Origin: Octopus vulgaris
Taxonomy: Eukaryota
Length of the DNA stretch: 64,000 nt
Direction: 5' to 3'
NCBI GenBank assembly: GCA_951406725.2
Contig: OX597821.1
Location: forward strand, 37,696,001-37,760,000
The translations under genes and the position numbers were made by a program. Shown in pieces: positions 2,770 to 35,349 of this stretch (position 1 is the stretch's first letter; each line of letters starts with the position of its first letter). The notes below the pieces were generated by a model. That model was not told where the DNA came from. It saw only the letters and a program-made list of their open reading frames with translations, and did no database searches.

Positions 2770-3374
2770 CGTTTATATATCTATATACATGTTCATGAAT
2801 GTGTATGTGTGTTTGTGTGTGATATTTCTATTACTGCTTTCAAAAATGTATGCAAAATTTTCGGTTGTTTCAATGGATGGCAAAAGCTTTCTAATCGACC
2901 GTTCTTTGTAATTCATTAGACTCATTTTCCATTCCTTAGTTGCCATTGTTTATGCTCGAGTGACATTACGTTAAATGCTGAAGGTTATATTTCAAATATC
3001 AGTATATAAGGCGAAGATGCGAAGTAAATATTTAATATAGTGTAGAAGGACTATCACACTAACAATATATTATGTAGACGCGTGAGCGAGTGAAAAACAA
3101 AACATAAAGAAAACTACAAAAAGCAGAGCGGGTGTGGCCTTACGAAGGAAGAATATTAGAAAATTCTGGAATATTAGATACGCTTGTTGATTTCATGGGA
3201 AATGGAAGAATCATGGTATTAATAAATCCAGACGATAATCCAAAATATACAGAAAAAATTGTCTATCAAAATATAATGTAGATGCGTTTCCAATATATAC
3301 ACCTCCATGCACACGCACACACTTGTATCTATGCATGGATATTGTGTGTGTGTTTGTGTATATGTTGATATATG

Positions 3375-3626
3375 TATATTATACACACACAGACACACAC
3401 ATACACACACACGTATATATATATATATATACATATATACATATATATATACATATATATATACATATACATATGTATATATATATACATTTATATATAT
3501 ACATACATACATATATATATATATACATACATATACATATATATATCTATACATAGATATATATATATCTATATCTATACATACACATATATATCTATAC
3601 ATACATATACATACATATACACATAC

Positions 3627-8940: not shown

Positions 8941-9138
8941 TGTGACCGCGAGTGTATCGTTGGCGATTTTCTTTCTCCGTCTTCCCTTCTTTGGACTTTT
9001 TCTATATTTCTGATGAAGAGTTCCACTCGAAACGTGAAATCCTCTTTTCTTTCCTTTCTTGAGCATCCAATAACACTGTACTTATTCTACGCCCTCGCGT
9101 TGTTGTTTTTTCTTGCTTGTTCATGTTTGGATTGACTA
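8941..9138 (+). mobile_element. Short (~200 bp) hammerhead-bearing repeat, probably Penelope-like; sister copy at 29733-29944
   Basis: Aligns end to end with the reverse complement of 29733-29944 and ends in (TA)n. Confidence 0.75.
9006..9040 (+). ncRNA. Minimal type I hammerhead motif, probably inactive (GUG triplet)
   Basis: attt CTGATGA a gag ttcca ctc GAAA c GTG aaat; palindromic ACGT stem III; position 17 is G. Confidence 0.65.
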
Positions 9139-13109: not shown

Positions 13110-13163
13110 TGGCTGATGAGAAATCACGCGCCTAGGTGGCCCTAAATTTCGAAACCGGTACCA
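13110..13163 (+). ncRNA. Type I hammerhead ribozyme, canonical core
   Basis: tgg CTGATGA gaaat-(loop)-atttc GAAA ccg GTA cca; G10.1-C11.1 pair present, palindromic ACCGGT stem III, predicted cleavage after 13160. Confidence 0.8.
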
Positions 13164-19114: not shown

Positions 19115-19143
19115 CAATAATATGTTACGTTACTCGATAGTCA

Positions 19144-19203
19144 AGATAAAACTCTGAGTTTCAGATGCCGAAGTGGGAATCCACGACATCTCTTCGGTTA
19201 TCT
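19144..19203 (-). ncRNA. Variant type I hammerhead motif (CCGAAGA core)
   Basis: agataa CCGAAGA gatgtcg...cggcatc t GAAA ctcaga GTT ttatct; 6-bp stem I, stem III ACTC-A-GAGT. Confidence 0.55.
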
Positions 19204-19255
19204 GGCTATTTGAAAACGGTATGAAAAAATACCGTCATAGCGTTTTCAAATAGCC

Positions 19256-19315
19256 AGATAACCGAAGAGATGTCGTGGATTCCCACTTCGGCATCTGAAA
19301 CTGAGAGTTTTATCT
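19256..19315 (+). ncRNA. Variant type I hammerhead motif (CCGAAGA core), mirror copy
   Basis: agataa CCGAAGA gatgtcg...cggcatc t GAAA ctgaga GTT ttatct. Confidence 0.55.
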
Positions 19316-20338
19316 TGACTATCGAGTAATGTAACATATTATTGTATAGATAAATTTCCTCTATTTACATAATATTGAGGTCTCTTTCTTTCTTTTGTTA
19401 TCTTACCGTTTTACCAATATATATATATATATTCAAGTATCTGCTCTTTATGATAGTATTTGATAGTACAAATACGAAAATCTAGTTGGATTTGTGAAAA
19501 TTCTATGTTTTATAGATGTTTTCATTTTTAGTTTGATTTTTAAAATAGTTTATTCTGTTAAAATTTTCGATTATATCTTCTAATTGAGTAGTAAGTTGTT
19601 GAAAGTGGAACCCTGCAACTGTCTTCGTTATGTTAAGTCTTTTGTATTACGTCTTCAGGCTTGTTCTTTAGTTAAACTTGCCAAAAATATAACACTCTAA
19701 CATATCAGTAAATTATAAGACATGTATATTGTGAATAGATTTATCCTTAGCAAACATTTCTAAAAGTGTTTACTTGAAGCCTAAATTTCTGGACTATTTT
19801 CATTTTTATAAATCTTGATTAGTTTTCTTTTCCCTTTCAACAGGAAACATATTTCTCTAAATTTCAATTGAGCTATAATATAAAACATATCATTTAGAGG
19901 AGCATTGTTCAGGAGAGAGCGATGGAATTCAGTCTTATTGGCTGAATTTATTGAAACGAAAAATGTTTGATTATGTTAGCAACTGTTGCACTCTGTTTTC
20001 TTGCATGTAACATCGTATTGGTCTCTTTTTCGGTTCTTTTGACTTGTATTAGGCTGATCTGATTCCATCAAGCTAGATTGGATAAAGTAGCGGATCAATC
20101 TAACATATTGCACCTAACAACTACTAATCTCGCGAAACCTCTTCAGTTTTACTGTTGCGATTTGCATTTTCTAATAAACTGCTTATTTTGAGTTTCTCTT
20201 CAATCATACACGTTATAACAAAAACACAATCGGGACTTTGTAAACGTGGATGATTGTGCTCTTTTGTACTGCTCTTATATAACATGTGTATGAAGTTGAA
20301 ATAGGCCCAACCCAAACGAACTACTCGATAAGCTTAAA

Positions 20339-32500: not shown

Positions 32501-33150
32501 CAAATATTTTCACACAATGTCTTGTTGAATATTTTCTTTGAATTCTCCTCGTTTTTTTTTCTGCTTTTTTTTCCTCAATTATTTCTACTCTTACAATTTC
32601 TTTTTTTCCCGACTCCTTATCTTCTGATTTCGCCAAACATTTGCTATAGACTCGATATTTACTTCGAAGAATGGCATTGCATAATAGGAATAATCTAATT
32701 TCCATTAGAGATGAATATTACTTAAGTTGATTCTGAACTCTGAAAATGGCAGGTATTATGATATCTTTCACTGAATCAATAATCATATTTTATTCCTTTA
32801 CATAGCAATTCCTCGTTCTACTCCATTCACGACGAAAGACATTCAACAAGAAAAACTAAATAAACACTGAAACCATTTTGTTCGTCTAACATTTGCTGCT
32901 ATCATCTTAAATAAACTGATGTAACTATCCCCGTTTGCCCATCCCCGCCAATTCCCTTCATCTTCAAAATCTTCAAATATGCCAAATAAATGTAAAGCTC
33001 AATCTCCCCGGTAGTCACTTGCCAGAAATAGAATCTTTTATTTCTTTATCGACATTTTGTTAATTACACTACGCTCAGTCTCTAATCATTCCGAGATAAC
33101 AATGAGGGAAGGCACACATAGAATTCTAATTAAAAACATTAAATACTGAT

Positions 33151-33482
33151 AGAGCAGTTGTATACTGTCAACTTAACGTGACAGTCCCGTAGAGGGAATT
33201 ACACCACCGATATTTAGCCCTAGGAAGCATCAACGCTTCCTGTCGGCTTTGACACATTTCCTGTGTCCTTATGTTTACAAAAGGGAGACAAGCACCCCCA
33301 ACGGCTAGGCCCGTACCCAGAAACATGTTTCTGAGTCTTGCTCATCATCAGTCTGGAGTAGCATGGCCTGCTAGCTGAAGATACCTCTATGGGACTGTCA
33401 CGTTAAGTTGACAGTATACAACTGCTCTTTCGTACCACTACCGCTCATATCTCTCTGAGATATTTAGAAATTTAATATTTCT
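33151..33482. mobile_element. 332-bp insertion with 45-bp inverted arms, an internal hammerhead and a 16-bp TSD
   Basis: AACATTAAATACTGAT at 33135-33150 and 33483-33498; arms at 33151-33195 and 33384-33428 with 1 mismatch. Confidence 0.88.
33317..33356 (-). ncRNA. Type I hammerhead ribozyme
   Basis: ccaga CTGATGA tgag caaga ctca GAAA cat GTT tctgg; 5-bp stem I, 4-bp stem II closed by U-A, palindromic ACATGT stem III. Confidence 0.8.
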
Positions 33483-35349
33483 AACATTAAATACTGATTT
33501 CCTTTAAAAATCTTTAAGGTTTGAAAGTAAAAGTTAAATATTATATCGTAAAACACATCTGATATTTTAACGCCGTGAACTGTTGTTTACAAATAGCAGA
33601 TAAATAAATTAAAATAAAAACCAATTTTGAAGCCCGGCTCAATTCAAATAATGCAACAACTGAATCACCAATACGAATTTATGATTTTTCCCAGACTGGA
33701 TTTTAGCAAAATTCTGTTCCTTGTTGTATGTTAAATATATATCTCTTTAGTTTCCTTTCGATGTTCTAAACCAAGCGTCCTTTAGTCGCCCAGGCGTTCA
33801 CTTTCAAAGCGGTATCCACATTAATGCTATCTTTGGTATCTTGTACTGGTTCAGATTGAGTCCTTAGCCTAGCTATCGAGTCGTTGTCCCTTTATTTCAA
33901 CGGACATAGTATTACAACCAGTTTTGTGGTAGATTCCTCACCAGACACTTTGTTGCGCCAGAAGATGCAGTAGATTTTTCCTCAAGTAAGTATTGTGGAA
34001 ACTATTAATCCAATTCTCCTTTTATTACTCGCTCGTATTCTGAGATATAACATTAGGACAGACAGGACCTTAATTTGATTTGGCATAACAAATGTATACT
34101 TTAATGGAAGTAATGTGTGAAGTTGTGTTGTTCATTGCTTTCTCACTGAAATTAGTGACGTAGGTGGCTATAATTCTTCGCTTCAATATTTTGTATTTCC
34201 TGCATGTCATAAAACATCAGTTTGTATTTGATTTCGGTTGCTGTCTGCTACTCAGCTTTAGTTAACTGTTTAATTCCTTCTCTCTAATCTCAATCCAAAC
34301 ATTGACAGCAATTTCTATCCAACGGATTAATTCTAATGCCCGTCATTATTCCGGTTCAGTTTCACGATATTTGAAAAAGATGAGGTTTCTAGTTCGTTGA
34401 CTAAAACAGAAGAGACAATTCAACAGAAAAAAAATTGAATCTCTTAAATGAAATTGAAAACGTTATGAAACCAATATTAACCAACTTAATTCTTCAGATT
34501 GGATCGTCGTTTTCCATGCAATTGTTTCACCTTTACAAGGCAATGATTTGGCAGAATCGTTAGAACATCGGAAAAAAATGTTTCGCAGTATTTGTTCAGC
34601 TTTCATCATTTCGAGGATAATAAAATAAAGTAGCCGTCAATTTCTGGAGCTGATAGTGTCAATTAATGTCGCCCTTCAAAATTGCTGGCTTTGTGTCAGA
34701 AACGAATACGTTTAGCTTTTAGCAGATAACCAGAAGAGCTGGCTTTATGTAAACAATACTGGTGGTCATTGAGAAAGAGAAACATCCAGTGTGATGGAGA
34801 ACTTTTGCTAAAGAGAAGCTGCATTTCTAGGATCCATGTCACAGTCTAACAGGTTCCCAAAGACAAGGTTAGGCCCCTATAGAGAGGGAGAGATGGAAGA
34901 CCTTGGAAAGCATGTGCTAATTTTGGGCACAGCGTCTGAGTGTAATGGACGGGCCCCCATCAGGCAGTACTGGTGACCTTGTTAGTTTGAAGTGATTGAC
35001 GGTACATTCGCACTTGGCTTGAGTTTATATAAAGTGGCGAAGCTGGAGGTGGTGGAAGAGGATAGAAATGGAGATTTGCCAAGAGTGTGCGCAGTGTAGA
35101 CATTGTTGTAAAAGCGAGCAGCAGCGGCAGCAGCAGCAGTAGTAGTAGTGGTAGTGGTAGTAGAGGCTTTTTTTCCTAGGGTTGCTGCTCACAGAACAAG
35201 AAAATGAATGAAAGAATAATACGATAACGATAACACCCACTCCCACATACATACACACACTTATGTCTTTATGTAAATATGCATTTATGTATGTTTTTTT
35301 ATGCATGTATATATAAGTATGAATATACTTTTGTATTAATGTGTATAAA

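What the first reader, a model, noticed from the sequence alone, without database searches (positions are those of the whole stretch)
33135..33498. Self-contained 332-bp ribozyme element with TSD, inverted arms and asymmetric tail
Seen: an exact 16-bp flanking duplication and 45-bp inverted arms. Between them are a compact minus-strand hammerhead (33317-33356) and further hairpins (AGGAAGC/GCTTCCT, GACACA/TGTGTC). A 54-nt tail lies outside the right arm. It looks like a MITE, but the arms are not both terminal and a 16-bp TSD suits target-primed retrotransposition. Inference: a recent non-autonomous Penelope-like or retrozyme-type element, and the cleanest unit of this system in the window.
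Basis: partly seen in the sequence, partly recalled or inferred. Interest (0 to 1): 0.7.

Follow-up and report, generated by a model that had tools for sequence, protein, structure and literature searches.

The report
Penelope-style hammerhead retrozyme insertion
This is one incomplete copy of a protein-less 350-base repeat, present in thousands of candidate copies, that carries a predicted self-cutting hammerhead RNA motif; it is made of two back-to-back pieces starting at two fixed points of the repeat, a footprint that likely records copying by a Penelope-like retrotransposon enzyme, a kind of genomic parasite already known in other animals.

Summary
The features are real: flanking duplication, 48-nt inverted arms, a minus-strand type I hammerhead motif and a one-sided tail. 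But this is not a self-contained unit. It is a truncated, partly inverted copy of a dispersed, circularly permuted ~350-nt non-coding family (about 3,300 candidates in the 2.8-Gb genome).

Across 119 distinct loci, 145 of 163 outer ends fall at two fixed sites about 52 nt apart (arm end, tail end). All 44 inverted loci are head-to-head. Where both ends sit at these sites, 30 of 31 pair one arm end with one tail end. Duplications peak at 12-13 bp. Arms and tail are therefore by-products of insertion, matching the published Penelope 'inverted pLTR plus one-sided tail' footprint, not MITE ends.

The hammerhead core is conserved, with palindromic stem III variants. No autonomous partner, promoter or RNA evidence was found; cleavage and circles are untested. 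The copy has average divergence and is not shown to be recent.

Verdict: new family of metazoan non-LTR retrozyme, likely Penelope-mobilised. The scan noted this kind, including the two-site footprint, on other DNA of this genome.

The parts
33136..33147 (+). Left target-site duplication, 12-bp unambiguous core (16 bp, 33135-33150, if bases shared with the element ends are counted)
33148..33386 (-). Long piece: monomer positions 59-298 in hammerhead sense, its 3' end at site A (arm end) abutting the left duplication
   Evidence: L001 1514-1752, 94% to the L007 monomer
33148..33195 (-). Left arm: monomer positions 251-298 within the long piece
33222..33241 (.). Small hairpin AGGAAGC/GCTTCCT, part of the family's predicted branched fold
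33251..33267 (.). Small hairpin GACACA/TGTGTC
33317..33356 (-). Type I hammerhead motif with short palindromic stem III; predicted cut after GUU, between 33322 and 33321 (family majority triplet is GUC)
33384..33386 (.). 3-nt microhomology (CCT) where the two oppositely oriented pieces join
33384..33483 (+). Short piece: monomer positions 251-350 (right arm plus tail), its 3' end at site B abutting the right duplication
   Evidence: L001 1750-1849, 93%
33432..33483 (+). 52-nt tail: the monomer stretch between site A and site B
33484..33495 (+). Right target-site duplication, 12-bp core (16 bp: 33483-33498)

Best explanation
The insert is a truncated copy of a non-coding ~350-nt hammerhead-motif repeat family, built from two head-to-head pieces that start at two fixed sites, and was likely written into the genome by a Penelope-like RT/GIY-YIG enzyme acting in trans on a probably circular or multimeric RNA. 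Shown: family, monomer, end sites, pairing rule, duplication lengths, junction overlaps, motif conservation. Inferred steps: (1) rare tandem loci are transcribed; paired hammerheads would cut out monomers that would be ligated into circles; (2) the enzyme nicks both strands of AT-rich DNA about 12-13 bp apart; (3) one nick primes reverse transcription at site B (tail end) and the other at site A (arm end, about 52 nt upstream); (4) the two cDNAs stop at variable points and are joined through a few bases of microhomology, leaving inverted arms of variable length and a tail on one side only. This copy is shorter than a monomer with one hammerhead, so it is predicted to be a dead end rather than a source.
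For: About 3,300-3,400 first-look candidates, 40 scored per search, best non-self copies 83-94% identical. 350-nt period in a natural tandem copy; longest stop-free frame 80 aa. Of 119 distinct loci (from 144 fetched): 145 of 163 outer 3' ends lie in two windows covering 33 of 350 positions (71 at A, 74 at B); 44 of 44 inverted loci are head-to-head; 30 of 31 with both ends at fixed sites are A+B, 1 B+B, 0 A+A; 11 of 11 among loci found with queries that do not favour that pattern (p=0.0005). Non-simple duplications in 18 of 44 inverted loci, 12 of them 12-13 bp; control 14 of 1000 at 8 nt or more. Junction overlap of 1-8 nt in 15 of 23 A+B loci examined. 42 of 165 segments exceed one monomer, and repeated passes agree at 95 of 104 diagnostic sites against 62 expected. 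Hammerhead: 53 of 73 motif copies pass a strict pattern; 44 of those 53 use one of three palindromic stem III forms; CUGAUGA conserved at 0.99 against 0.94 overall; 23 double-sided changes, reached by 0 of 500 shuffles. Six of six natural monomers fold as circles at z -5.4 to -9.5. 3' flanks are 76% AT, with a dinucleotide microsatellite in 51 of 163 against 123 of 2133 window bins. The genome holds intact 781-aa RT plus GIY-YIG ORFs. Literature: inverted pLTR with one-sided tail and 8-10 bp TSD (PMC3846280, PMC8557442); both strands cut and extended, two RT start sites bounding the tail (PMC11167929).
Against: No autonomous partner: the monomer shares no convincing sequence with 46 GIY-YIG loci. 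The young 781-aa family ends at (TA)n in the 4 copies whose 3' ends were printed and showed no one-sided tail in its one inverted copy. 13 of 44 inverted loci have one end outside the two windows, and 26 of 44 show no non-simple duplication. Circle against linear multimer is not resolved; 5' ends are not enriched at the predicted cut (2 of 165 at positions 125-126). The base pair closing stem II is unpaired, mostly C-A, in 49 of 72 copies, and 12 of the 23 double-sided changes come from one distal pair; shared ancestry inflates the shuffle test. The antisense strand also folds well (z -4.6 to -6.5). The tail (about 52 nt) is longer than the 30-40 bp reported for PLEs. Loci are the best-scoring hits, not a random sample. 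Only 1 of 9 Xenopus retrozyme dimers cleaved in vitro (10.64898/2026.07.22.740005).
Confidence: 0.8

Rival explanations
1. The copies are 5'-truncated pLTR fragments of an autonomous Penelope-like element that I did not find, rather than an independent non-coding retrozyme.
For: The footprint is that of PLE ends. Most PLE hammerheads occur as solo truncated copies (PMC4209133). Only 150 of 6136 GIY-YIG candidates were scored and 46 loci compared.
Against: Upstream of the hammerhead the copies run into the previous monomer's tail, not into coding sequence: 42 of 165 segments exceed one monomer. Two PLE proteins hit only 3 of 119 loci, none adjoining the element. No frame longer than 80 aa.
Confidence: 0.1
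2. A LINE-type enzyme copies the RNA by target-primed reverse transcription with twin priming, as for L1 5' inversions.
For: Duplications of 9-16 bp, AT-rich targets and microhomology joints also fit LINE insertion (own knowledge). PMC7229834 names LINEs as possible mobilisers.
Against: No poly(A) or fixed repeat tail. In L1 twin priming the two pieces copy adjacent, non-overlapping parts of one RNA (own knowledge), whereas here they overlap: 3933 shared sites over 43 loci. The second priming site is fixed, not variable.
Confidence: 0.05
3. A MITE (non-autonomous DNA transposon) with 48-nt terminal inverted repeats.
For: Short, non-coding, inverted arms, many copies.
Against: 75 of 119 loci have no inversion; the inverted part varies from under 20 to over 300 nt; ends are asymmetric; duplications vary from 9 to 16 bp; copies are permuted and tandem.
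Confidence: 0.02

Closest known systems
Metazoan non-LTR retrozymes (Cervera and de la Pena 2020, PMC7229834; Li, Clavereau and Pollet 2026, bioRxiv 10.64898/2026.07.22.740005)
   Same: Non-coding monomer of about 350 nt (mussel 350-390 bp), GC 41-45%, type I hammerhead with short palindromic stem III, long TSDs, no LTR features, strongly self-paired predicted circle, co-occurs with autonomous PLEs.
   Different: Mostly dispersed sub-monomer or 1.2-mer copies; only 2 of 119 loci keep two or more undeleted hammerhead positions in tandem. Frequent head-to-head inversions with two fixed start sites are not described in the parts of these papers I read ('inverted' occurs 0 times in the main text of PMC7229834). 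No homology to a host pLTR was found. Expression and cleavage are untested.
EN+ Penelope-like elements: PAc/Poseidon of Anolis (PMC11167929), Adineta Pen2/Pen3 (PMC3846280), Naiad (PMC8557442)
   Same: Partial tandems, adjacent inverted truncated copy, tail at one end only, variable TSD, AT-rich and microsatellite targets, hammerhead upstream of two start sites.
   Different: No ORF; tail about 52 nt rather than 30-40; TSD mode 12-13 rather than the 8-10 quoted for Adineta.
L1 twin-primed 5' inversions (recalled, not read here)
   Same: Two target strands prime cDNA; pieces joined head-to-head by microhomology.
   Different: Here the pieces overlap, both priming sites are fixed, and there is no poly(A).

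Membership tests
Metazoan non-LTR retrozyme | Type I hammerhead motif in the repeat unit | tested here: met
   53 of 73 motif copies pass a strict pattern; stems I-III supported; no Rfam hit for the window copy
Metazoan non-LTR retrozyme | Non-coding monomer of 150-450 bp, GC under 50% | tested here: met
   349-353 nt, GC 0.41-0.45, longest frame 80 aa
Metazoan non-LTR retrozyme | Tandem repeats with two or more hammerheads | tested here: met
   Met for the family at L040 (3 units) and L060 (2); a third locus, L229, has the core deleted; not met by the window copy
Metazoan non-LTR retrozyme | TSD longer than 4 bp; no LTR or tRNA-like head | tested here: met
   9-16 bp, mode 12-13; ARAGORN finds no tRNA gene in 5 of 5 loci; PBS and PPT were not searched separately
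Metazoan non-LTR retrozyme | Expressed as linear and circular monomer RNA | tested here: inconclusive
   No run on record as RNA; only contigs were available
Metazoan non-LTR retrozyme | Self-cleavage in vitro | not testable with these tools
   Needs a bench assay
Autonomous EN+ PLE | ORF with RT and GIY-YIG | tested here: not met
   No ORF in the monomer; no PLE protein hit in the window or adjoining 119 loci
PLE-type insertion footprint | Inverted truncated copy, one-sided tail, two start sites, variable TSD | tested here: met
PLE-derived non-autonomous element | Sequence homology to the pLTR of a host PLE | tested here: inconclusive
   None in 46 loci, out of 6136 GIY-YIG candidates
MITE | Terminal inverted repeats and fixed short TSD in all copies | tested here: not met

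The most novel reading that the evidence does not exclude
The strict arm-end plus tail-end pairing records an asymmetric Penelope enzyme complex in which each target strand is assigned its own fixed start site on a small ribozyme-made RNA circle, sometimes on two different RNA molecules (arms agree at 101 of 124 diagnostic sites, tandem passes at 95 of 104; Fisher p=0.036). That would give an in vivo rule explaining the one-sided Penelope tail and direct genomic evidence that PLEs mobilise animal retrozymes lacking pLTR homology.
Probability: 0.45. Interest if true: 0.6.

Novelty: new member of a known kind. Interest (0 to 1): 0.36.

Why it matters
Which enzyme mobilises animal retrozymes, and how Penelope elements make their inverted ends and one-sided tail, are described as open in the papers read. 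A 350-nt protein-free template with two mapped start sites and a counted pairing rule is a compact substrate for testing both. It also shows that such copies can be mistaken for MITEs. The element class and the general footprint are already published, and the scan has noted sister families in this genome.

Tried and rejected
Rfam scans of the window and of 33100-33520: no hammerhead family hit.

Expression: no RNA holder listed. Four runs guessed to be RNA are contigs only and cannot show ends, strand or circles; no conclusion drawn.

Empty allele: none among the 15 joints shown, 14 more not shown; this does not prove fixation.

Autonomous partner: 46 GIY-YIG loci gave no convincing similarity to the monomer.

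snRNA-type promoter (lead from e1-8798639): U1, U2, U4 and U5 genes share ATCAGT near -58 and AATTAA about 32 nt further up. The monomer has ATCAGTGAA at position 10 in sense, but it scores at a background fraction of about 3e-4 to 2e-3 per position (roughly chance over 350 positions), an antisense site scores as well, and the upstream motif is not at the right spacing. Inconclusive, not used. U6 upstream regions showed no shared motif by eye.

Fusions or starts at the predicted cut (lead from e1-9876745): no enrichment. tRNA head: none.

One search used a mis-registered structure string and is superseded. One search timed out and was rerun smaller. L035 was left out of alignment A1 because its hammerhead stretch is identical to L007's (72 of 73 aligned).

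Paper searches: retrozyme+octopus and octopus+hammerhead ribozyme+retrotranspos listed 2 papers each, neither about such a family by title or abstract start; Penelope+twin priming and PLE structure listed no paper on the A+B pairing rule. The library lacks most subscription papers, supplements were not read, and Repbase/Dfam could not be checked.

Full report
OBSERVATION. Rfam does not recognise the motif and the single motif folds no better than shuffles, so it had to be judged from related copies.

FAMILY. The window lies in a 2.8-Gb animal genome of 227 contigs. Searches gave 3323 and 3416 first-look candidates, of which 40 each were scored. A natural tandem copy (L007) defines a 350-nt monomer. 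In hammerhead sense, numbered to end at the tail, it reads: spacer 1-58, hammerhead core 94-124, hairpins 150-250, arm 251-298, tail 299-350. It has no frame over 80 aa. Six of six natural monomers fold as circles at z -5.4 to -9.5 against 30 shuffles each; the antisense strand gives -4.6 to -6.5.

ANATOMY OF THIS COPY. It is two pieces: positions 59-298 on the minus strand (33386-33148) and positions 251-350 on the plus strand (33384-33483), overlapping by CCT. The arms are the part copied twice; the tail is the part copied only by the second piece. Four of the 16 duplicated bases also belong to the family's ends, leaving a 12-bp core. The copy lacks positions 1-58 and has one hammerhead, so it could not release a unit-length RNA by itself (inference).

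PATTERN ACROSS COPIES. From 144 fetched loci, 119 are distinct. They are top-scoring hits of four queries and not a random sample. Outer 3' ends: 71 at site A (284-300), 74 at site B (343-8), 18 elsewhere. Inner 5' ends are spread over the whole monomer. 75 loci have one orientation, 44 are inverted, all head-to-head. Of the 44, 31 have both ends at the fixed sites: 30 A+B, 1 B+B, none A+A; the other 13 have one end elsewhere. Using only loci found with the whole-monomer or mid-monomer query, it is 11 of 11 (p=0.0005). Non-simple duplications occur in 18 of 44 inverted loci (9-16 bp, 12 of them 12-13) and 9 of 75 single loci; mismatched flanks give 14 of 1000 at 8 nt or more. Junctions overlap by 1-8 nt in 15 of 23 A+B loci examined, abut in 2 and have a gap in 6. 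Flanks are 76% AT and often dinucleotide microsatellite (51 of 163, against 123 of 2133 window bins).

TEMPLATE. 42 of 165 segments are longer than one monomer and read through the predicted cut; only 2 of 165 start at positions 125-126. The template was therefore not a cleaved linear monomer. Repeated passes within a segment agree at 95 of 104 non-CpG diagnostic sites (62 expected) and differ by 5.7%; the two arms of an inversion agree at 101 of 124 (74 expected) and differ by 7.2% (Fisher p=0.036, sites not independent). This fits a circle read more than once, or a homogeneous tandem transcript, and hints that the two arms sometimes come from different molecules. Only 3 of 119 loci span two hammerhead positions in tandem, and in one of them (L229) the core is deleted.

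RIBOZYME MOTIF. In the first 76 distinct loci, 53 of 73 motif copies pass a strict pattern. Stem III is ACATGT (27), ACTAGT (10) or ACATGCATGT (7), all palindromes, as expected for hammerheads that work as dimers (PMC4209133). CUGAUGA is conserved at 0.99 against 0.94 for the monomer. On 72 aligned copies the proposed structure has 88.7% of cells paired and 23 double-sided changes, reached by 0 of 500 shuffles, including C-G to U-A in stem I (4) and A-U to G-C in stem II (3). Against: relatedness inflates that test, 12 of the 23 changes are in one distal pair, and the pair closing stem II is unpaired (mostly C-A) in 49 of 72 copies. The window copy has U-A there and GUU in place of the majority GUC. 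Activity is untested.

AGE. The copy differs from the family majority at 13 of 239 and 6 of 100 sites; the mean of 131 segments is 5.6%. Both junctions appear in three large runs under three organism labels (kind not on record; I take them as DNA because they cover the flanks), with 0-2 differences in 318-477 nt, and no listed joint skips the element. 'Recent' is not supported.

MOBILISER. The genome has 6136 GIY-YIG candidates (150 scored) and a young family with intact 781-aa RT plus GIY-YIG ORFs. By my reading, its terminal repeat carries a variant hammerhead-like motif with the same GAAACATGTT stem III. The monomer shares no convincing sequence with 46 such loci, and that family ends at (TA)n without a one-sided tail in the one inverted copy inspected. 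The partner is not identified. No PLE coding remnant adjoins the copies (3 of 119 loci have a non-adjoining hit), which argues against solo pLTRs.

MECHANISM AND RIVALS. Best reading (0.8): a non-LTR retrozyme family copied in trans by a PLE enzyme that nicks both strands 12-13 bp apart and primes one cDNA at B and one at A, the two being joined by microhomology. The end sites, pairing and duplications are shown; the enzyme, the RNA form and cleavage are inferred. Rivals: solo pLTR of an unfound PLE (0.1), LINE twin priming (0.05), MITE (0.02).

COMPARISON WITH WHAT IS KNOWN. It works like a PLE insertion: inverted truncated copy and one-sided tail (PMC8557442 and PMC3846280, passages), both strands cut and extended, two internal start sites bounding the tail (PMC11167929, parts 1-2 of 4). 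It meets the sequence criteria for metazoan non-LTR retrozymes (PMC7229834, passages and section 14), which a 2026 preprint derives from PLEs (10.64898/2026.07.22.740005, parts 1-3 of 5). PMC4209133 was read in parts 1-2 of 4. Expression and cleavage criteria are untested. Supplements of these papers were not read and may list cephalopod families. Searches listed no paper on this family or on a strict A+B pairing rule, within a library that lacks most subscription papers.

EARLIER NOTES OF THE SCAN. Several notes describe sister insertions in this genome, one with back-to-back arrays from two fixed points. A sequence look-up found no look-alike, so I cannot say whether any is the same family. 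They are not independent support. Two leads from them (snRNA-type promoter, starts at the cut site) were tested here without support.

VERDICT. Real feature, new family of a known kind, interest 0.36. The counted pairing rule is the most useful part.

Noticed in passing
window 19120-19340: Near-perfect palindrome of about 220 bp (94% to its own reverse complement); scores 57.4 bits against Rfam mir-9, under the 58.6 cut-off. Could be another head-to-head insertion or a foldback element.
   Followed up: no
window 9010-9032 (+) and 29867-29845 (-): Two further hammerhead-core motifs in a second repeat family, about 80% alike to each other over 270-290 bp and unrelated to this monomer; a third copy lies in L107.
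   Followed up: partly
window 13113-13154 (+) and 6939-6915 (-): Two more hammerhead-core pattern matches with no other copy in the window; not validated.
   Followed up: no
L121-L127 (e.g. G000:C16:20835000-20841000): Young autonomous Penelope-like family, copies up to 98-99% identical, with intact 781-aa RT plus GIY-YIG ORF, a ~385-bp terminal repeat, (TA)n at the 3' end, an inverted terminal repeat in L126 and a variant hammerhead-like motif in the repeat.
   Followed up: partly
L229:797-1790: Two successive tandem units carry the same deletion of the hammerhead core and the same private variants, while the opposite arm has an intact hammerhead: a defective template copied twice, or a later duplication.
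   Followed up: partly
L137-L170, L185-L202: U1, U2, U4 and U5 genes share an ATCAGT-like motif at -57 to -60 and AATTAA about 32 nt upstream of it, a candidate snRNA promoter for this animal; not evident upstream of the U6 hits.
   Followed up: partly
L043, L054, L056 (G000:C1:131.77-131.81 Mb): Three near-identical copies 14-16 kb apart with the same damaged hammerhead, probably carried in a larger tandem duplication.
   Followed up: no
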